Assembly (NCBI GenBank): GCA_000004985.1 | Contig: GG739115.1 | Length of the DNA stretch: 7,695 bases | Reading direction: 5' to 3' (one strand) | From: Naegleria gruberi | Taxonomy: Eukaryota | Shown here: positions 1 through 7,695 of the stretch, one piece after another | Numbering within the stretch: position 1 is the stretch's first letter | Layout: every line of letters starts with the position of its first letter | Translations under genes and position numbers: made by a program | Notes under the pieces: generated by a model | The model's database searches: none | Seen by the model: the letters and a program-made list of their open reading frames with translations, nothing else | What the model was told of the DNA's origin: nothing

Positions 1-663
1 CTATTGGCTATGAAAGAAATACTTGATCCATCCTTCAAACAAAAAAACCAATCATCTAATATTTTAAGTAGTATAGAAATCATTAATTATATTATTAATA
101 ATGATCAACTCGACACCAAATCAAAAACTAAATATATTATTAATATTATTCCTTCTAAAATGAGAGGGAAATTATTGAAGGTTTTGGAAAATGTAAATTC
201 TAGTCAAGACCGAATAGATAATATTTTAACTCCAGAAGAGGAACATTTGTGCTCATTCCTTGACATATCCACCAAGTATGCATATTTATTAGGAAATGAT
301 AGAACATTCTTCAATCAATTACCTATTTGTTGGAGATGTAATTGTACTAAAAAATTGAACAAAGTTTCACTTCTTGAACAAATACCTTTAACTCCATTTC
401 ATCCTAATCATGAAATTGAATTATTCAATATTTTTAAATTAAAACATTATCAGCATATTTTTGATTTGCTTCATTGTGATGCAAGAACTTTGGAGCATAT
501 GTTAAATAATACTTGTATGAATGATGATAGACTTTTAGATTTTCTTGTTGAAATTCTTCCCAAATTAGTGAAAAAACATTGTGGACAAACCATTCATTTA
601 AAATTGTCCACCACTAAGGATACTAAGAACACAGGAGATTCCACTGATCAAGAAATCATTTAG
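1..663 (+). CDS. Hypothetical protein, 5'-partial. The frame is open from the first base of the window. The 'start' at 4 in the ORF track is a TTG counted as an initiator; the first ATG is at 10-12.
   Basis: Frame 1 is uninterrupted for 220 codons, with the stop TAG at 661-663. Codon usage is typical of AT-rich protist coding sequence (caa, aat, aga, cca, ggt). GC is about 30%, higher than the pure-AT spacer expected between genes in this kind of genome. A Cys/His-rich stretch (LPICWRCNCTKK ... HPNHE ... HCDARTLEH) may be a metal-binding motif. I do not recognise a family. Confidence 0.55.
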   Translation, partial: LLAMKEILDPSFKQKNQSSNILSSIEIINYIINNDQLDTKSKTKYIINIIPSKMRGKLLKVLENVNSSQDRIDNILTPEEEHLCSFLDISTKYAYLLGNDRTFFNQLPICWRCNCTKKLNKVSLLEQIPLTPFHPNHEIELFNIFKLKHYQHIFDLLHCDARTLEHMLNNTCMNDDRLLDFLVEILPKLVKKHCGQTIHLKLSTTKDTKNTGDSTDQEII

Positions 664-802
664 TTTCATTGATGCTTCCTATGTGAAATACATAACAAAA
701 GTGTATCCATATTTTTTAGAAGAAATGGAAATTAAATTTAATGAGATTTTAGAGGAAGAAGGTTCGGATTCTAATTCTATTGAATCAAACACAGAGAAAT
801 AA
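602..802 (+). other. Open stretch in frame 2 (66 sense codons plus TAA at 800-802) spanning the end of the first + ORF, the whole 'intergenic' spacer, and the ATG of the second + ORF.
   Basis: It reads NCPPLRILRTQEIPLIKKSFSFIDASYVKYITKVYPYFLEEMEIKFNEILEEEGSDSNSIESNTEK*. The chance of 66 stop-free codons in random DNA of this composition is about 0.3% by my rough estimate (roughly 8% stop frequency per codon). The terminal TAA overlaps the downstream ATG as TAATG at 800-804. The portion 664-799 looks like protein-coding sequence, not spacer. Confidence 0.35.
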
Positions 803-1356
803 TGCAAATAATTCATGATATGGTTGGAATTGGAAATGAATTGAATCCGTTTTCGAAAGATGGTAAAATTTCACAATTATGGTCAATTTTTTACGAAGTT
901 CAAGATTATTTGCATTTTGATGACGAACAAGTCATGGAGATACTTAAAGATCCACAGCAACGTCACTTTATTCAAAAAAGAGTTTCAAAATATTGCTCCT
1001 TCTATGTTGAAGTTTTTGAGAAAGGTCCACATTATCTTCACCAAATGAAGTATCATTTAATTGAAGTGTGGGTTCAAATTTTATCACTCAAAAATGGAAT
1101 GAATTTTATTAATGAAGGTCTTGGAAAGTATCATGTAACAGATAATTTAACAAGAGGAAGAAATGGAGGATTGGGATCTGATTCAAGATGGGATTTAATA
1201 GCACAGCACATTACAGAGGGGTTTTTATTCAAAAATTCAAAGCTGTGGTCAGAACTTCAAAAAGTGATGAAGGCACGTTACAAATACCGATCATCAAAAG
1301 CTGAATTTGATGCCAAATTGAATGAATCTGAAAGTTTATTAACACATCACCCATGA
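802..1356 (+). CDS. Hypothetical protein, or the downstream part of the same gene as 1..663. Both are in frame 1.
   Basis: A 184-codon ORF from ATG 802-804 to TGA 1354-1356. Frame 1 is already open from 784. Codon usage matches the first ORF. No family recognised. The 62-aa overlapping ORF at 860..1048 in another frame is judged spurious. Confidence 0.5.
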   Translation: MQIIHDMVGIGNELNPFSKDGKISQLWSIFYEVQDYLHFDDEQVMEILKDPQQRHFIQKRVSKYCSFYVEVFEKGPHYLHQMKYHLIEVWVQILSLKNGMNFINEGLGKYHVTDNLTRGRNGGLGSDSRWDLIAQHITEGFLFKNSKLWSELQKVMKARYKYRSSKAEFDAKLNESESLLTHHP

Positions 1357-1551
1357 ATTGGATTTTTCACAGTACCTCTGAGTCCAGTATATCATATCAG
1401 CTCTAACCAGTCCAGTATATTCTGAATATACAAACTTCAAATGCGTAACAAAGCCCCTTTTACAATCACCTGTTTGCTTATCCATCCATTTTACAGAACT
1501 CCAATCAGAAGTAGATAATGGAGGCATTGTTCTACCAGGAATGGTCTTGAA
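1339..1551 (-). CDS. C-terminal fragment (70 codons plus stop) of a minus-strand gene whose body lies in the unresolved gap.
   Basis: The reverse-strand frame is open from the gap edge (1551) down to TAA (the reverse complement of 1339-1341). It reads FKTIPGRTMPPLSTSDWSSVKWMDKQTGDCKRGFVTHLKFVYSEYTGLVRADMIYWTQRYCEKSNSWVMC*. Local GC is about 38%, markedly above the window average, as expected for coding sequence in an AT-rich genome. The supplied track lists only the inner 62-aa part, starting at Met. Confidence 0.5.
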   Translation of the reverse strand, partial: FKTIPGRTMPPLSTSDWSSVKWMDKQTGDCKRGFVTHLKFVYSEYTGLVRADMIYWTQRYCEKSNSWVMC

Positions 1552-4500
1552 NNNNNNNNNNNNNNNNNNNNNNNNNNNNNNNNNNNNNNNNNNNNNNNNN
1601 NNNNNNNNNNNNNNNNNNNNNNNNNNNNNNNNNNNNNNNNNNNNNNNNNNNNNNNNNNNNNNNNNNNNNNNNNNNNNNNNNNNNNNNNNNNNNNNNNNNN
1701 NNNNNNNNNNNNNNNNNNNNNNNNNNNNNNNNNNNNNNNNNNNNNNNNNNNNNNNNNNNNNNNNNNNNNNNNNNNNNNNNNNNNNNNNNNNNNNNNNNNN
1801 NNNNNNNNNNNNNNNNNNNNNNNNNNNNNNNNNNNNNNNNNNNNNNNNNNNNNNNNNNNNNNNNNNNNNNNNNNNNNNNNNNNNNNNNNNNNNNNNNNNN
1901 NNNNNNNNNNNNNNNNNNNNNNNNNNNNNNNNNNNNNNNNNNNNNNNNNNNNNNNNNNNNNNNNNNNNNNNNNNNNNNNNNNNNNNNNNNNNNNNNNNNN
2001 NNNNNNNNNNNNNNNNNNNNNNNNNNNNNNNNNNNNNNNNNNNNNNNNNNNNNNNNNNNNNNNNNNNNNNNNNNNNNNNNNNNNNNNNNNNNNNNNNNNN
2101 NNNNNNNNNNNNNNNNNNNNNNNNNNNNNNNNNNNNNNNNNNNNNNNNNNNNNNNNNNNNNNNNNNNNNNNNNNNNNNNNNNNNNNNNNNNNNNNNNNNN
2201 NNNNNNNNNNNNNNNNNNNNNNNNNNNNNNNNNNNNNNNNNNNNNNNNNNNNNNNNNNNNNNNNNNNNNNNNNNNNNNNNNNNNNNNNNNNNNNNNNNNN
2301 NNNNNNNNNNNNNNNNNNNNNNNNNNNNNNNNNNNNNNNNNNNNNNNNNNNNNNNNNNNNNNNNNNNNNNNNNNNNNNNNNNNNNNNNNNNNNNNNNNNN
2401 NNNNNNNNNNNNNNNNNNNNNNNNNNNNNNNNNNNNNNNNNNNNNNNNNNNNNNNNNNNNNNNNNNNNNNNNNNNNNNNNNNNNNNNNNNNNNNNNNNNN
2501 NNNNNNNNNNNNNNNNNNNNNNNNNNNNNNNNNNNNNNNNNNNNNNNNNNNNNNNNNNNNNNNNNNNNNNNNNNNNNNNNNNNNNNNNNNNNNNNNNNNN
2601 NNNNNNNNNNNNNNNNNNNNNNNNNNNNNNNNNNNNNNNNNNNNNNNNNNNNNNNNNNNNNNNNNNNNNNNNNNNNNNNNNNNNNNNNNNNNNNNNNNNN
2701 NNNNNNNNNNNNNNNNNNNNNNNNNNNNNNNNNNNNNNNNNNNNNNNNNNNNNNNNNNNNNNNNNNNNNNNNNNNNNNNNNNNNNNNNNNNNNNNNNNNN
2801 NNNNNNNNNNNNNNNNNNNNNNNNNNNNNNNNNNNNNNNNNNNNNNNNNNNNNNNNNNNNNNNNNNNNNNNNNNNNNNNNNNNNNNNNNNNNNNNNNNNN
2901 NNNNNNNNNNNNNNNNNNNNNNNNNNNNNNNNNNNNNNNNNNNNNNNNNNNNNNNNNNNNNNNNNNNNNNNNNNNNNNNNNNNNNNNNNNNNNNNNNNNN
3001 NNNNNNNNNNNNNNNNNNNNNNNNNNNNNNNNNNNNNNNNNNNNNNNNNNNNNNNNNNNNNNNNNNNNNNNNNNNNNNNNNNNNNNNNNNNNNNNNNNNN
3101 NNNNNNNNNNNNNNNNNNNNNNNNNNNNNNNNNNNNNNNNNNNNNNNNNNNNNNNNNNNNNNNNNNNNNNNNNNNNNNNNNNNNNNNNNNNNNNNNNNNN
3201 NNNNNNNNNNNNNNNNNNNNNNNNNNNNNNNNNNNNNNNNNNNNNNNNNNNNNNNNNNNNNNNNNNNNNNNNNNNNNNNNNNNNNNNNNNNNNNNNNNNN
3301 NNNNNNNNNNNNNNNNNNNNNNNNNNNNNNNNNNNNNNNNNNNNNNNNNNNNNNNNNNNNNNNNNNNNNNNNNNNNNNNNNNNNNNNNNNNNNNNNNNNN
3401 NNNNNNNNNNNNNNNNNNNNNNNNNNNNNNNNNNNNNNNNNNNNNNNNNNNNNNNNNNNNNNNNNNNNNNNNNNNNNNNNNNNNNNNNNNNNNNNNNNNN
3501 NNNNNNNNNNNNNNNNNNNNNNNNNNNNNNNNNNNNNNNNNNNNNNNNNNNNNNNNNNNNNNNNNNNNNNNNNNNNNNNNNNNNNNNNNNNNNNNNNNNN
3601 NNNNNNNNNNNNNNNNNNNNNNNNNNNNNNNNNNNNNNNNNNNNNNNNNNNNNNNNNNNNNNNNNNNNNNNNNNNNNNNNNNNNNNNNNNNNNNNNNNNN
3701 NNNNNNNNNNNNNNNNNNNNNNNNNNNNNNNNNNNNNNNNNNNNNNNNNNNNNNNNNNNNNNNNNNNNNNNNNNNNNNNNNNNNNNNNNNNNNNNNNNNN
3801 NNNNNNNNNNNNNNNNNNNNNNNNNNNNNNNNNNNNNNNNNNNNNNNNNNNNNNNNNNNNNNNNNNNNNNNNNNNNNNNNNNNNNNNNNNNNNNNNNNNN
3901 NNNNNNNNNNNNNNNNNNNNNNNNNNNNNNNNNNNNNNNNNNNNNNNNNNNNNNNNNNNNNNNNNNNNNNNNNNNNNNNNNNNNNNNNNNNNNNNNNNNN
4001 NNNNNNNNNNNNNNNNNNNNNNNNNNNNNNNNNNNNNNNNNNNNNNNNNNNNNNNNNNNNNNNNNNNNNNNNNNNNNNNNNNNNNNNNNNNNNNNNNNNN
4101 NNNNNNNNNNNNNNNNNNNNNNNNNNNNNNNNNNNNNNNNNNNNNNNNNNNNNNNNNNNNNNNNNNNNNNNNNNNNNNNNNNNNNNNNNNNNNNNNNNNN
4201 NNNNNNNNNNNNNNNNNNNNNNNNNNNNNNNNNNNNNNNNNNNNNNNNNNNNNNNNNNNNNNNNNNNNNNNNNNNNNNNNNNNNNNNNNNNNNNNNNNNN
4301 NNNNNNNNNNNNNNNNNNNNNNNNNNNNNNNNNNNNNNNNNNNNNNNNNNNNNNNNNNNNNNNNNNNNNNNNNNNNNNNNNNNNNNNNNNNNNNNNNNNN
4401 NNNNNNNNNNNNNNNNNNNNNNNNNNNNNNNNNNNNNNNNNNNNNNNNNNNNNNNNNNNNNNNNNNNNNNNNNNNNNNNNNNNNNNNNNNNNNNNNNNNN

Positions 4501-6715
4501 NNNNNNNNNNNNNNNNNNNNNNNNNNNNNNNNNNNNNNNNNNNNNNNNNNNNNNNNNNNNNNNNNNNNNNNNNNNNNNNNNNNNNNNNNNNNNNNNNNNN
4601 NNNNNNNNNNNNNNNNNNNNNNNNNNNNNNNNNNNNNNNNNNNNNNNNNNNNNNNNNNNNNNNNNNNNNNNNNNNNNNNNNNNNNNNNNNNNNNNNNNNN
4701 NNNNNNNNNNNNNNNNNNNNNNNNNNNNNNNNNNNNNNNNNNNNNNNNNNNNNNNNNNNNNNNNNNNNNNNNNNNNNNNNNNNNNNNNNNNNNNNNNNNN
4801 NNNNNNNNNNNNNNNNNNNNNNNNNNNNNNNNNNNNNNNNNNNNNNNNNNNNNNNNNNNNNNNNNNNNNNNNNNNNNNNNNNNNNNNNNNNNNNNNNNNN
4901 NNNNNNNNNNNNNNNNNNNNNNNNNNNNNNNNNNNNNNNNNNNNNNNNNNNNNNNNNNNNNNNNNNNNNNNNNNNNNNNNNNNNNNNNNNNNNNNNNNNN
5001 NNNNNNNNNNNNNNNNNNNNNNNNNNNNNNNNNNNNNNNNNNNNNNNNNNNNNNNNNNNNNNNNNNNNNNNNNNNNNNNNNNNNNNNNNNNNNNNNNNNN
5101 NNNNNNNNNNNNNNNNNNNNNNNNNNNNNNNNNNNNNNNNNNNNNNNNNNNNNNNNNNNNNNNNNNNNNNNNNNNNNNNNNNNNNNNNNNNNNNNNNNNN
5201 NNNNNNNNNNNNNNNNNNNNNNNNNNNNNNNNNNNNNNNNNNNNNNNNNNNNNNNNNNNNNNNNNNNNNNNNNNNNNNNNNNNNNNNNNNNNNNNNNNNN
5301 NNNNNNNNNNNNNNNNNNNNNNNNNNNNNNNNNNNNNNNNNNNNNNNNNNNNNNNNNNNNNNNNNNNNNNNNNNNNNNNNNNNNNNNNNNNNNNNNNNNN
5401 NNNNNNNNNNNNNNNNNNNNNNNNNNNNNNNNNNNNNNNNNNNNNNNNNNNNNNNNNNNNNNNNNNNNNNNNNNNNNNNNNNNNNNNNNNNNNNNNNNNN
5501 NNNNNNNNNNNNNNNNNNNNNNNNNNNNNNNNNNNNNNNNNNNNNNNNNNNNNNNNNNNNNNNNNNNNNNNNNNNNNNNNNNNNNNNNNNNNNNNNNNNN
5601 NNNNNNNNNNNNNNNNNNNNNNNNNNNNNNNNNNNNNNNNNNNNNNNNNNNNNNNNNNNNNNNNNNNNNNNNNNNNNNNNNNNNNNNNNNNNNNNNNNNN
5701 NNNNNNNNNNNNNNNNNNNNNNNNNNNNNNNNNNNNNNNNNNNNNNNNNNNNNNNNNNNNNNNNNNNNNNNNNNNNNNNNNNNNNNNNNNNNNNNNNNNN
5801 NNNNNNNNNNNNNNNNNNNNNNNNNNNNNNNNNNNNNNNNNNNNNNNNNNNNNNNNNNNNNNNNNNNNNNNNNNNNNNNNNNNNNNNNNNNNNNNNNNNN
5901 NNNNNNNNNNNNNNNNNNNNNNNNNNNNNNNNNNNNNNNNNNNNNNNNNNNNNNNNNNNNNNNNNNNNNNNNNNNNNNNNNNNNNNNNNNNNNNNNNNNN
6001 NNNNNNNNNNNNNNNNNNNNNNNNNNNNNNNNNNNNNNNNNNNNNNNNNNNNNNNNNNNNNNNNNNNNNNNNNNNNNNNNNNNNNNNNNNNNNNNNNNNN
6101 NNNNNNNNNNNNNNNNNNNNNNNNNNNNNNNNNNNNNNNNNNNNNNNNNNNNNNNNNNNNNNNNNNNNNNNNNNNNNNNNNNNNNNNNNNNNNNNNNNNN
6201 NNNNNNNNNNNNNNNNNNNNNNNNNNNNNNNNNNNNNNNNNNNNNNNNNNNNNNNNNNNNNNNNNNNNNNNNNNNNNNNNNNNNNNNNNNNNNNNNNNNN
6301 NNNNNNNNNNNNNNNNNNNNNNNNNNNNNNNNNNNNNNNNNNNNNNNNNNNNNNNNNNNNNNNNNNNNNNNNNNNNNNNNNNNNNNNNNNNNNNNNNNNN
6401 NNNNNNNNNNNNNNNNNNNNNNNNNNNNNNNNNNNNNNNNNNNNNNNNNNNNNNNNNNNNNNNNNNNNNNNNNNNNNNNNNNNNNNNNNNNNNNNNNNNN
6501 NNNNNNNNNNNNNNNNNNNNNNNNNNNNNNNNNNNNNNNNNNNNNNNNNNNNNNNNNNNNNNNNNNNNNNNNNNNNNNNNNNNNNNNNNNNNNNNNNNNN
6601 NNNNNNNNNNNNNNNNNNNNNNNNNNNNNNNNNNNNNNNNNNNNNNNNNNNNNNNNNNNNNNNNNNNNNNNNNNNNNNNNNNNNNNNNNNNNNNNNNNNN
6701 NNNNNNNNNNNNNNN
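1552..6715. other. Assembly gap of 5164 N. The non-round length suggests an estimated scaffold gap.
   Basis: There is a continuous run of n. The flanking bases are 1551 (a) and 6716 (t). The two long ORFs in the track (1491..6722 on - and 1541..6847 on +) consist almost entirely of X and are artefacts. Confidence 0.99.
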
Positions 6716-7695
6716 TATCCACCTGTTACTATACTATCAGATGTTGATGAAAATTCAACACAATATAAATCTGATTTTATATTCTTTTTAAAATGTTCAA
6801 TTGATAATATATTATTATTATTATTTATATTATTATTATTAATATAATTATTATTAATATTATCAATTAAATTTTTAACATCCCATATTTTAATAGTACC
6901 ATCAGATGAAGCAGAAGCTAATAAATTACCATTTTGATTTGATGATAAATCCCAAATTCTATTAACATGTCCATTTAAATTTAATAATAAATTTCTATTA
7001 ATAGTATCCCATATTTTAATAGTATTATCAGATGATGCACTTGCTAAATATAAACCTTGTTTACCAATAAATTCAACTGATTTTACATTTTCTTCATGTC
7101 CATTAAATGTATATAATAAATTATTAGGTATATTTAATGTTTCATAATCTTTTAATAATGTTGTTATAATTGTTTTATTATTATTTATATTTAAATTATT
7201 TATATTATTATTTATATTTATATTATTATTTAAATTATTTTTATAATAATTATTTAAAGTTTGAAAATTAATAGCTTGATTTAATAATTCAATTAATCTA
7301 TTTTGTGGTATTAAATTTGGATAATTTGATTGATCAATTAAATTTTGATTTAAAATTTCTTGTATTAATAAATCTCTACTACTAGATAAAGAATAAAAAT
7401 CTTGTTGTTGATTTAAAGTAAATTCTGAAAATCTTTCAACTTCATTAACATTTTTACAAGTTAATAATAAACATAAATCTGAAAATTCTTCACGTGTAAT
7501 TACATTTTTAATTGGTTTAATTCTTTTATTTAAAATATTAAATGCTTTTTGATATTCTCCACTTTCAATTAATTCAAAATAATATTGTTTATATATTAAA
7601 TATATTGTATTTTTACTAATTATTATATTATTATTAGAATTATTAGAATTATTATTATTTATATTATTTAATTGATTAGAATTATTTAAATTATT
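6716..7695 (-). CDS. WD40-repeat protein with an N-terminal CTLH-like region, WDR26/GID7-like. It is partial at both ends: the N-terminus lies beyond 7695 and the C-terminal part lies in the gap.
   Basis: The reverse-strand frame has codons ending at 7695 and 6718, giving 326 sense codons with no stop and no Met (which is why the ORF track lacks it). The translation contains ...IYLIYKQYYFELIESGEYQKAFNILNKRIKPI... and ...LIPQNRLIELLNQAINFQ..., which resemble the CTLH and post-CTLH region of WDR26. A poly-Asn/Ile linker follows. Three WD40 units then carry GH..., LASASSDNTIKIWD and LASASSDGTIKIWD, and a further repeat starts with ...SIVTGG before the gap. The WD40 call is high confidence. The WDR26-family call is from memory of the human protein and is moderate confidence. 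Confidence 0.85.
6804..6863 (-). repeat. 60-nt pure A/T trinucleotide low-complexity tract ((ATT)n on +, which is (AAT)n on -) encoding a poly-Asn insert (NINNNYINNNNINNNNNI) inside the WD40 domain.
   Basis: There is no G or C between 6804 and 6863. The tract is in-frame in the - strand ORF. Confidence 0.8.
7173..7258 (-). repeat. 86-nt pure A/T low-complexity tract encoding an Asn/Ile/Lys-rich linker between the CTLH-like region and the first WD40 repeat.
   Basis: There is no G or C between 7173 and 7258. It translates on the - strand as ...LNNYYKNNLNNNININNNINNLNINNNK... Confidence 0.8.
7617..7695 (-). repeat. (AAT)n-rich low-complexity tract encoding a poly-Asn/Ser stretch upstream (N-terminal side) of the CTLH-like region.
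   Basis: The sequence is attattatattattattagaattattagaattattattatt... It translates on the - strand as NNLNNSNQLNNINNNNSNNSNNNIII. Confidence 0.7.

What the first reader, a model, noticed from the sequence alone, without database searches (positions are those of the whole stretch)
602..804. The two + strand ORFs look like one gene broken by two compensating frame changes
ORF 1..663 and ORF 802..1356 are both in frame 1. A 66-codon stop-free stretch in frame 2 (602..799, with TAA at 800-802) bridges them. The 138-nt spacer has about 28-30% GC, protein-like codon structure, and none of the long homopolymeric A/T runs that normally separate genes in AT-rich amoebozoan or protist genomes. The frame-2 stop overlaps the downstream ATG (TAATG). 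The simplest explanations are (a) two single-base indel errors in a draft assembly, plausibly in the short A runs near 648-650 and 797-799; (b) a real pseudogene; or (c) an exon-intron structure I failed to resolve. If fused, the gene would encode a protein of at least 450 aa of unknown family.
Basis: seen in the sequence. Interest (0 to 1): 0.55.

Follow-up and report, generated by a model that had tools for sequence, protein, structure and literature searches.

The report
Interrupted gene copy on a Naegleria mini-scaffold
The two open reading frames and the stretch between them are pieces of one gene, a copy of an uncharacterised 803-residue Naegleria gruberi protein, whose reading frame is broken twice on a tiny, mostly-gap draft scaffold, so this is an ordinary sequencing-error-or-young-pseudogene case.

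Summary
The window is a complete 7,695-bp scaffold of Naegleria gruberi, a heterolobosean and not an amoebozoan. It consists of a 1,551-bp contig, 5,164 N and a 980-bp contig.

A paralogue on a 508-kb scaffold, XP_002674025.1 (803 aa), aligns collinearly to all three pieces:
- aa 247-461 match 1-645 in frame 1 (71% identity).
- aa 464-504 match 650-772 in frame 2 (63%, E 2e-13).
- aa 614-803 match 784-1353 in frame 1 (68%).

Willaertia magna and a marine metagenome eukaryote carry blocks A and B in one frame. The first break lies at about 644-655. The second lies at about 781-795, where the window also lacks 109 linker residues that the paralogue has.

The annotated 184-aa protein XP_002668352.1 (802-1356) is a C-terminal fragment. 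Its start Met is Ile in the paralogue, and similarity continues upstream of it.

The copy has no stop in 446 codons and no rate acceleration, so the breaks are either base-calling or assembly indels (favoured, about 0.5) or very recent mutations (about 0.35). Introns, programmed frameshifting and two unrelated genes are rejected. The gene family has no known function.

The parts
1..645 (+). Block A, frame 1. This is the middle part of the gene, cut by the start of the scaffold. It equals residues 247-461 of paralogue XP_002674025.1 and contains the invariant CxxCxC and HIxDxLH...EHMLN motifs.
   Evidence: tblastn gave 71% identity, E 1e-108. W. magna L001 9362-9598 is 52% identical. The invariant columns are listed.
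644..655 (+). First frame break, from frame 1 to frame 2. The 4 nt GATC (646-649) stand where the paralogue has 6 nt (KS). The frame can be repaired by adding 2 nt at about 644-652 or by removing 1 nt, for example AAA 653-655 to AA.
   Evidence: HSP ends at 645 and 650. Repair scan. W. magna, the marine homologue and P0013 have no break at this point.
650..772 (+). Block B, frame 2. It includes the conserved FSFIDASYV motif and equals P0013 residues 464-504.
   Evidence: tblastn frame +2, 63% identity, E 2e-13. In W. magna (L001 9698-9817) and the marine contig (L002 312-389) this block is in frame with block A. Codon log-odds are positive only in frame 2.
773..795 (+). Second frame break, from frame 2 back to frame 1, and the site of a much shorter linker. 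P0013 residues 505-613 (109 aa, rich in Asn and Asp) have no counterpart here. Adding 1 nt somewhere in 781-795 repairs the frame, for example in the A run 787-789.
784..1356 (+). Block C, frame 1. This is the C-terminal all-helical domain and equals P0013 residues 614-803. Homology starts 6 codons upstream of ATG 802. The stop is TGA at 1354-1356.
   Evidence: tblastn gave 68% identity, E 8e-94, starting at 784. W. magna is 35% identical, with the alignment starting upstream of its own ATG.
802..1356 (+). The annotated CDS XP_002668352.1 / EFC35608.1 (NAEGRDRAFT_76736, 184 aa). It is a fragment model that starts at a Met not conserved in relatives (Ile in P0013).
   Evidence: 100% match to P0008, whose record contig length is 7695. 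REI-M/I-Q alignment.
800..804 (+). TAATG: the frame-2 stop overlaps the frame-1 ATG. It follows automatically from an Ile(ATA)-Met dipeptide in frame 1.
   Evidence: The inference rests on the codons listed.
1340..1551 (-). Tail of a convergent minus-strand ORF (70 codons, running into the gap). It overlaps the end of the gene by 17 nt and is conserved in the same position in W. magna.
   Evidence: Translation. tblastn to L001 10632-10522 gave 46% identity, E 3e-8. The shared motif KFVYSEYT..VR.D is.
1552..6715 (.). Scaffold gap of 5,164 N, which is 67% of the record.

Best explanation
Positions 1-1356 are one gene. It is a paralogue, about 70% identical in protein, of the uncharacterised N. 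gruberi gene NAEGRDRAFT_51329 (803 aa). The scaffold start cuts it at the equivalent of residue 247.

In this record the reading frame is interrupted twice, at about 644-655 and about 781-795, so the ancestral coding blocks lie in frames 1, 2 and 1. The gene predictor could therefore only call the last block, from the first ATG, as a 184-aa 'predicted protein'.

I think the two interruptions are most likely small indel errors of base calling or consensus in a very poorly covered Sanger mini-scaffold. In that case the real gene would be intact.

What is shown:
- The three blocks are collinear with one protein.
- Block B is in frame with block A in three relatives.
- There are no other defects, and the copy has not evolved faster than its paralogue.

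What is inferred: that the cause is error rather than recent mutation. The protein's function is unknown. It is all-helical, has no Pfam or PDB match, and has a conserved C-x2-C-x-C motif and a C-terminal helical domain.
For: One gene:
- tblastn of P0013 against the window gives three collinear HSPs in frames +1, +2 and +1 (E 1e-108, 2e-13 and 8e-94).
- W. magna aligns to P0013 residues 353-780 in one frame (E 2e-58).
- Similarity to block C starts upstream of ATG 802, and that Met is Ile in P0013.

Recent break or artefact:
- 446 homologous codons carry no stop. Simulation gives less than a 5% chance of that after 3% neutral substitutions per site.
- The relative-rate test gives 17 versus 12 unique changes (W. 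magna outgroup) and 15 versus 12 (marine outgroup), which is not significant.

Error-prone context:
- The record is a 7,695-bp scaffold that is 67% N, from a Sanger assembly of 1,977 scaffolds (PMC9928731, Table 1).
- A 5-kb stretch without any read at this locus implies very low local coverage (inference).
- Both breaks lie within 150 nt of each other near the middle of the 1,551-bp contig. That is 650-800 nt from either end, where the tails of opposed Sanger reads would overlap (inference).
- Both breaks can be repaired by changing an A run by one base.
Against: - No reads or quality values could be examined.
- The 980-bp right contig of the same scaffold has no frame error over 326 codons and is identical in amino acids to the main-assembly gene model where they can be compared. 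Read quality on this scaffold is therefore not obviously bad.
- Against the paralogue, the first break scores best as a 2-nt deficit, not the classic 1-nt miscall. That preference rests on a single gap penalty.
- The second break sits where the linker is 109 residues shorter than in the paralogue. W. magna and the marine homologue carry real breaks in the same linker, which raises the prior that this break is also real.
Confidence: 0.5

Rival explanations
1. The sequence is correct and this copy is a very young pseudogene or decaying duplicate. Two real small indels in low-complexity linker segments inactivated a gene that had been under selection until recently. The 184-aa model is then a remnant and not a functional gene.
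For: - Relatives show real lesions in the same main linker. W. magna has an in-frame TAA. The marine organism has an in-frame TAG in four assemblies, plus a 7-nt indel polymorphism.
- The W. magna copy also lacks the N-terminal 350 residues or so, so members of this family do decay.
- The second break coincides with a 109-aa linker length difference.
- The right contig of the same scaffold shows no frame errors.
- Two indels and no nonsense mutation is a plausible outcome for a short neutral period (inference from the rates).
Against: - Nothing beyond the two breaks indicates decay. There is no stop in 446 codons and no rate acceleration.
- Both lesions would have to be very recent, and both fall in the part of the contig most exposed to read-tail errors.
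- Local coverage is evidently minimal, since 67% of the scaffold is gap.
Confidence: 0.35
2. The breaks, or at least the second one, are real and tolerated or used. On this view the family is naturally expressed as an upstream and a downstream polypeptide, or through recoding in the linker. Possible mechanisms are stop-start coupling at TAATG, stop-codon readthrough, or frameshifting.
For: - Independent lineages have a break in the same linker while both flanking domains stay open and conserved. In N. gruberi it is TAATG, in W. magna an in-frame TAA 21 codons before the ATG, and in the marine variant an in-frame TAG 26 codons before the ATG.
- Protein similarity continues between the stop and the first ATG in W. 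magna.
- All the lesions seen fall in poorly conserved linkers and none falls in a domain.
Against: - The paralogue model P0013 spans the linker as one protein.
- The type of break differs in every lineage (-1 shift, in-frame TAA, in-frame TAG, +1 shift), so no single mechanism is conserved.
- There is no X_XXY_YYZ slippery heptamer at either break.
- Met 802 is not conserved.
- The stop contexts (TAA-A, TAG-A) are not known readthrough contexts (my own knowledge).
- The first break has no counterpart in any relative.
- Low-complexity linkers are simply where indels and tolerated lesions are expected to occur.
Confidence: 0.1
3. The spacer is an intron, or part of an exon-intron structure, and the ORFs are exons of a normally spliced gene.
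For: Some single GT-AG intervals, such as 606-794 and 501-794, do restore one open frame.
Against: - Every such interval deletes sequence that is conserved as protein in the paralogue and in two other taxa, namely block B with FSFIDASYV or parts of blocks A and C.
- The spacer has exon-like composition (26.8% GC) and exon-like codon usage in frame 2.
- The first break is a 4-nt versus 6-nt difference, which is too small for an intron.
Confidence: 0.02
4. ORF1 and ORF2 are two unrelated neighbouring genes, as the current annotation implies, and the open frame-2 stretch is a chance feature.
For: - Only 802-1356 is annotated as a gene.
- W. magna and the metagenome gene callers also split the locus into two genes.
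- Frame 2 has another chance-length open stretch of 67 codons.
Against: - One N. gruberi protein covers both ORFs and the frame-2 peptide collinearly.
- The frame-2 peptide has homologues at E 2e-13.
- Similarity runs through the annotated start codons in both N. gruberi and W. magna.
Confidence: 0.01

Closest known systems
Naegleria gruberi NAEGRDRAFT_51329 (XP_002674025.1 / EFC41281.1, 'predicted protein', 803 aa)
   Same: It has the same architecture and order of blocks, with 70% identity over 444 aligned residues. It shares the CWRCNC, QHIFDLLH, EHMLNNTC, FSFIDASYV, PHYLHQMKYH and RNGGLGSDSRWDL motifs.
   Different: It is modelled as one uninterrupted protein with a 109-residue longer Asn/Asp-rich linker and 246 further N-terminal residues. 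It lies on a 508-kb scaffold. I could not retrieve its DNA, so I could not check whether the model is a single exon.
Willaertia magna locus JBEGDK010000098.1 (KAL9648966.1, 165 aa, plus the upstream 201-aa model)
   Same: It is the homologue with conserved local synteny, including the convergent minus-strand ORF. Blocks A, B and C are collinear and 36-37% identical.
   Different: All three blocks are in one frame, separated by a single in-frame TAA in the linker. The N-terminal part equivalent to P0013 residues 1-352 was not detected. It is annotated as two genes. The size of the upstream model (201 aa over 1.6 kb) implies a roughly 1-kb intron that supplies an ATG, and this is my inference.
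Interrupted or frameshifted CDS in draft assemblies (sequencing-error frameshift or unitary pseudogene)
   Same: Adjacent ORFs on one strand each match a consecutive part of one homologue in a different frame, and the gene predictor reports only a fragment.
   Different: Nothing differs in kind. The only unusual point is that relatives in other lineages are also broken in the same linker.
Stop-start overlap UAAUG used for termination-reinitiation (for example influenza B segment 7 M1/BM2; my own knowledge)
   Same: The pentanucleotide TAATG joins the end of the frame-2 stretch to the downstream ORF.
   Different: The Met is not conserved (Ile in the paralogue), coding similarity runs through it, and no relative has the overlap. 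This is a resemblance of sequence only.

Membership tests
Interrupted copy of the NAEGRDRAFT_51329-like gene family | One family member aligns collinearly to all the pieces, in order and on one strand | tested here: met
   There are three HSPs: P0013 247-461, 464-504 and 614-803 against window 1-645 (+1), 650-772 (+2) and 784-1353 (+1).
Interrupted copy of the NAEGRDRAFT_51329-like gene family | The family's invariant residues are retained in every block | tested here: met
   57 invariant columns are shared by the repaired window sequence, W. magna and the marine homologue, including C110/C113/C115, IDAS, P-YLH-K-H and RN-GL-S.
Interrupted copy of the NAEGRDRAFT_51329-like gene family | The break is absent at the same point in relatives | tested here: inconclusive
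   The first break is absent in all three relatives. For the second, relatives have breaks of their own elsewhere in the same linker, while P0013 has none.
Sequencing or assembly indel artefact | Reads or quality values contradict the consensus at the break | not testable with these tools
   No reads, traces or second N. gruberi assembly were reachable. The look-up of encoding contigs holds neither ORF2 nor P0013.
Old or decayed pseudogene | In-frame stops accumulate and the copy evolves faster than its functional paralogue | tested here: not met
   No stop in 446 codons, with P below 0.05 beyond 3% neutral divergence. The relative-rate counts are 17 versus 12 and 15 versus 12.
Programmed -1 ribosomal frameshift | A slippery heptamer X_XXY_YYZ in the zero frame within the overlap of the two frames | tested here: not met
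   None was found in 770-802 (zero frame 2) or in 600-663.
Programmed ribosomal frameshift (either sign) | The frameshift is conserved at the same site in homologues | tested here: not met
   The first site is in frame in P0013, W. magna and the marine homologue. At the second site the configuration differs in each lineage.
Termination-reinitiation (stop-start overlap) | The stop and start codons overlap | tested here: met
   TAATG at 800-804.
Termination-reinitiation (stop-start overlap) | The restart codon is the true, conserved N-terminus of the downstream product | tested here: not met
   The Met at 802 aligns to Ile in P0013, and the alignment starts 6 codons upstream. In W. magna the alignment also starts upstream of the ATG.
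Spliceosomal intron | GT-AG boundaries whose removal joins the exons in frame without deleting conserved coding sequence | tested here: not met
   Every frame-restoring GT-AG interval removes block B or parts of blocks A and C (compared).
Transposable-element ORF pair | Terminal repeats, many copies, and a transposase, RT or integrase domain | tested here: not met
   - No Pfam domain in any member.
- No terminal inverted or long terminal repeats around the W. magna locus.
- Only two annotated N. gruberi members, and only three real relatives of the C-terminal domain among 1.84 billion representatives.
- No hits in viral contigs.

The most novel reading that the evidence does not exclude
The break between the upstream part and the C-terminal helical domain might be a recurrent, tolerated or exploited feature of this orphan family. 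N. gruberi has TAATG, W. magna a single in-frame TAA, and the marine eukaryote a single in-frame TAG plus a 7-nt indel polymorphism. The family would then be expressed as two polypeptides or by stop readthrough or reinitiation, which would be an unusual dicistronic or recoded nuclear gene in Heterolobosea.
Probability: 0.08. Interest if true: 0.55.

Novelty: new member of a known kind. Interest (0 to 1): 0.2.

Why it matters
The result matters mainly for annotation.
- XP_002668352.1 (N. gruberi) and KAL9648966.1 (W. magna) are C-terminal fragments of a larger protein and not 165-184-aa proteins.
- Orphan-gene counts, pangenome comparisons and structure-prediction sets that include them inherit that error.

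The work also defines a small, previously unlinked family. Its members are two N. gruberi paralogues, one W. magna locus and one marine eukaryote. It has conserved Cys and His motifs and no known function.

The biological interest is low unless the recurrent linker breaks turn out to be functional.

Tried and rejected
- **Dictyostelium idea.** I first took the window for Dictyostelium DNA, possibly a transposon, because the right contig is Asn-rich with 13-19% GC. I searched the Dictyostelium transposon literature. This was dropped when ORF2 matched an N. gruberi record exactly and the right contig matched N. gruberi SMU1.
- **Word-index protein searches.** The search with the fused 450-aa sequence found nothing. 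This was a false negative, because the profile search later found a 70%-identical paralogue. The search with the SMU1 fragment was swamped by low-complexity candidates.
- **Domain and RNA searches.** Pfam on all pieces and relatives gave nothing significant. The best hit was dUTPase_2 at E 0.039. A PDB profile search gave nothing below E 0.018. Rfam and tRNA scans gave nothing.
- **Other collections.** Phage and plasmid DNA, viral contigs and metagenome contigs all had no relatives.
- **Structure prediction.** AlphaFold2 on P0013 gave mean pLDDT 43.5 and on the C-terminal domain 46.3. Both are too poor, so I ran no fold search.
- **P0010.** This 2,519-aa repetitive protein (E 2e-10, 14 stretches) was rejected as a repeat-driven spurious hit.
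- **Mobile-element signatures.** No terminal inverted or long terminal repeats were found around the W. magna locus.
- **SMU1 synteny.** W. magna has no SMU1 gene next to its homologue.
- **Paralogue DNA.** Retrieving DNA of the N. gruberi paralogue for a dN/dS estimate failed.
Full report
**What the window is.** The 7,695 bases consist of a 1,551-bp contig (27-36% GC), a run of 5,164 N (1552-6715) and a 980-bp contig (13-19% GC). An exhaustive phmmer search with ORF2 found a 100% identical 184-aa protein. It is XP_002668352.1 / EFC35608.1, NAEGRDRAFT_76736, a 'predicted protein' of Naegleria gruberi, and its record contig length is exactly 7,695. The window is therefore a whole mini-scaffold of the Sanger assembly of N. 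gruberi NEG-M, which has 40.9 Mb, 35% GC and 1,977 scaffolds (PMC9928731 Table 1). My first guess, Dictyostelium, came from the Asn-rich right contig and was wrong.

**The observation.**
- Frame 1 is open to TAG at 661-663.
- Frame 2 is open over 602-799 and ends in TAA at 800-802, which overlaps ATG at 802-804.
- Frame 1 is open again from 784 to TGA at 1354-1356.

The spacer has 26.8% GC and no A/T run longer than 6. A codon log-odds model trained on the two ORFs scores the spacer +10.7 in frame 2, -36.7 in frame 1 and -17.9 in frame 3. In sliding windows the best frame changes from 1 to 2 near 630-660 and back to 1 near 780. Openness alone is not strong evidence. Shuffling gives P = 0.002, but frame 2 has another open run of 67 codons inside ORF2.

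**Homologues.** None of the pieces has a Pfam match. A word-index search with a fused sequence returned nothing, and later results show this was a false negative.

The exhaustive search with ORF2 found three real relatives: the protein itself, Willaertia magna KAL9648966.1 (165 aa, 37% identity, E 1.7e-24), and a 198-aa protein from marine metagenomes (E 1e-6). It also returned a repetitive 2,519-aa protein that I regard as spurious. I fetched the encoding contigs. In both organisms an ORF lies directly upstream on the same strand, 63 nt away in W. magna and 58 nt away in the marine contigs.

Translations and tblastn show two things:
- These upstream ORFs are homologous to ORF1. W. magna is 52% identical over 80 residues (E 2e-24).
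The window has SFSFIDASYV, W. magna has GFKMIDASYI and the marine contig has GFSFIDASHV.

In the marine contig the two alignments abut exactly, at L002 311 and 312.

A profile built from the three fused sequences then found the decisive protein. This is N. gruberi XP_002674025.1 (NAEGRDRAFT_51329), 803 aa, on a 508-kb scaffold.

**The decisive alignment.**
- P0013 residues 247-461 match window 1-645 in frame +1 (71% identity, E 1e-108).
- P0013 residues 464-504 match window 650-772 in frame +2 (63% identity, E 2e-13).
- P0013 residues 614-803 match window 784-1353 in frame +1 (68% identity, E 8e-94).

The two ORFs and the frame-2 stretch are parts of one gene, a paralogue that is 70% identical over 444 residues. 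The scaffold start truncates it at the equivalent of residue 247.

The last alignment starts six codons upstream of ATG 802, and the Met aligns to Ile (REIMQIIH against REIIQLIH). The annotated 184-aa protein is therefore a fragment that begins at an incidental Met. The TAATG overlap follows automatically from the codons ATA-ATG in frame 1.

**Anatomy of the breaks.**
- First break. Four nucleotides (GATC, 646-649) stand where the paralogue has two codons (KS). The frame is restored by adding two bases at about 644-652, or by removing one, for example AAA 653-655 to AA. No relative has a break at this point.
- Second break. This lies within 781-795 and needs one more base, for example in the A run 787-789. 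The run 797-799 also restores the frame but fits the paralogue slightly less well. At this point the window also lacks 109 residues of the Asn/Asp-rich linker of P0013 (residues 505-613).

**Rejected mechanisms.**
- Introns. Single GT-AG intervals that reopen the frame exist, but each removes blocks that are conserved as protein in three relatives. The spacer is also exon-like in composition and codon usage.
- Programmed frameshifting. There is no X_XXY_YYZ heptamer at either site, and the shifts are not conserved in homologues.
- Old pseudogene. The 446 homologous codons have no stop, and simulation gives less than 5% for that outcome after 3% neutral substitutions per site. Tajima-type counts of lineage-specific changes are 17 for the window against 12 for P0013 with W. 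magna as outgroup, and 15 against 12 with the marine outgroup. The copy has therefore evolved under the same constraint as its paralogue for essentially all of its history.
- Mobile element. There are no transposase-like domains and no terminal repeats around the W. magna locus. Very few copies exist, and there are no relatives in viral contigs. In addition, the convergent minus-strand ORF tail at 1340-1551 is conserved in the same position in W. magna (46% identity). That points to an old chromosomal locus.

**Error or real?** Two explanations remain.

In favour of error:
- The record is a leftover mini-scaffold, two thirds of it gap, in a Sanger draft.
- An uncovered 5-kb stretch implies minimal local coverage.
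- The two breaks are 140 nt apart near the middle of a 1,551-bp contig, where the low-quality tails of opposed reads would meet.
- Both breaks are repairable by one base in an A run.
- Nothing else is wrong with the gene.

In favour of real, very recent lesions:
- The 980-bp right contig of the same scaffold has no frame error and is amino-acid-identical to the main-assembly SMU1 model in blocks of 26 and 143 residues.
- The first break scores best as a 2-nt deficit.
- The second break sits in a linker with a clear history of real indels.
- Relatives carry real lesions in that same linker.

I put the artefact explanation at about 0.5 and a young pseudogene at about 0.35. The reads would settle the question.

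**The linker in other lineages.**
- W. magna aligns to P0013 residues 353-780 in one HSP in one frame, with a single in-frame TAA (L001 9935-9937) in the linker. Similarity continues between that stop and the annotated ATG at 10001.
- The marine homologue exists in two forms. L002 and L005 contain a 7-nt TCCTATC that L003 and L004 lack.
- Without those 7 nt, the upstream part runs into the frame of the downstream ORF and is separated from it only by one in-frame TAG.

So three lineages have a break in the same poorly conserved linker while both flanking domains stay open. The simplest reading is that lesions arise and persist most easily in low-complexity linkers, possibly in copies that are already decaying. 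The W. magna copy also lacks the N-terminal third. A functional split or recoding cannot be excluded, but the form of the break differs in every lineage and the N. gruberi paralogue model has none. I give that reading about 0.1.

**Function.** Function is unknown.
- Pfam gave nothing, and the PDB profile search gave nothing below E 0.018.
- AlphaFold2 models were of low confidence: mean pLDDT 43.5 for P0013 and 46.3 for the C-terminal domain. Both were predicted all-helical. I therefore ran no fold search.
- The conserved features are a C-x2-C-x-C motif, H-I-x-D-x-L-H, E-H-M-L-N, F-x-x-I-D-A-S, P-x-Y-L-H-x-x-K-x-H and R-N-x-G-L-x-S.

**Verdict.** This is an interrupted copy of an uncharacterised gene on a poor mini-scaffold, and its annotated protein is a fragment. 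It is ordinary in kind and of low interest, apart from the small chance that the recurrent linker breaks have a function.

Noticed in passing
window 6716-7695 (minus strand): The right contig encodes part of an SMU1-like CTLH + WD40 protein. It is amino-acid-identical, in blocks of 26 and 143 residues, to XP_002674914.1 (NAEGRDRAFT_70021), which lies on a 379,849-bp scaffold. The mini-scaffold is therefore partly redundant with the main assembly. That gene model skips 157 codons (window translation residues 27-183) that are open here and hit a CTLH-containing Pfam domain (TPR1-like_2nd, E 1.6e-5), so the model's 'intron' is probably coding.
   Followed up: partly
window 6716-7695: This coding DNA has extreme composition for N. 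gruberi: 13-19% GC with long Asn (AAT) runs, in a genome of 35% GC.
   Followed up: no
window 1340-1551 (minus strand): The tail of a convergent ORF (70 codons, running into the gap) overlaps the end of the plus-strand gene by 17 nt. It is conserved at the same relative position in W. magna (KFVYSEYT..VR.D, 46% identity) and has no Pfam match. A perfect 12-nt direct repeat, AGTCCAGTATAT, lies inside it at 1381-1392 and 1409-1420.
   Followed up: partly
L001 (W. magna JBEGDK010000098.1) 8146-10498: The W. magna homologue has a single in-frame TAA at 9935-9937. It is annotated as two genes: a 201-aa model spanning 8340-9937, and KAL9648966.1 at 10001-10498. The 201-aa model probably borrows an ATG through an intron of about 1 kb. 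The part equivalent to P0013 residues 1-352 was not detected. A poly-T run of about 140 nt lies at 8146-8286.
   Followed up: partly
L002 ~519-525 / L005 ~2211-2217 versus L003, L004: There is a 7-nt indel polymorphism (TCCTATC) among four independent marine metagenome assemblies of the homologue. It switches the upstream part between two frames. The short form leaves one in-frame TAG between the two parts. L005 also shows GTGAGTA...AG introns upstream, so the organism is a eukaryote.
   Followed up: partly
tool behaviour: The single-sequence word-index search with the fused protein missed both the identical 184-aa protein and the 70%-identical paralogue, which a profile search later found. 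Protein comparison reported only a trivial HSP for two sequences that share a 143-residue identical block. Negative results from these two tools should be treated with caution.
   Followed up: yes
window 845-1045 (frame 2): A 67-codon open stretch in frame 2 lies inside ORF2 (listed as ORF 860-1048, 62 aa). It shows that off-frame open runs of 60-70 codons occur by chance in this sequence.
   Followed up: yes
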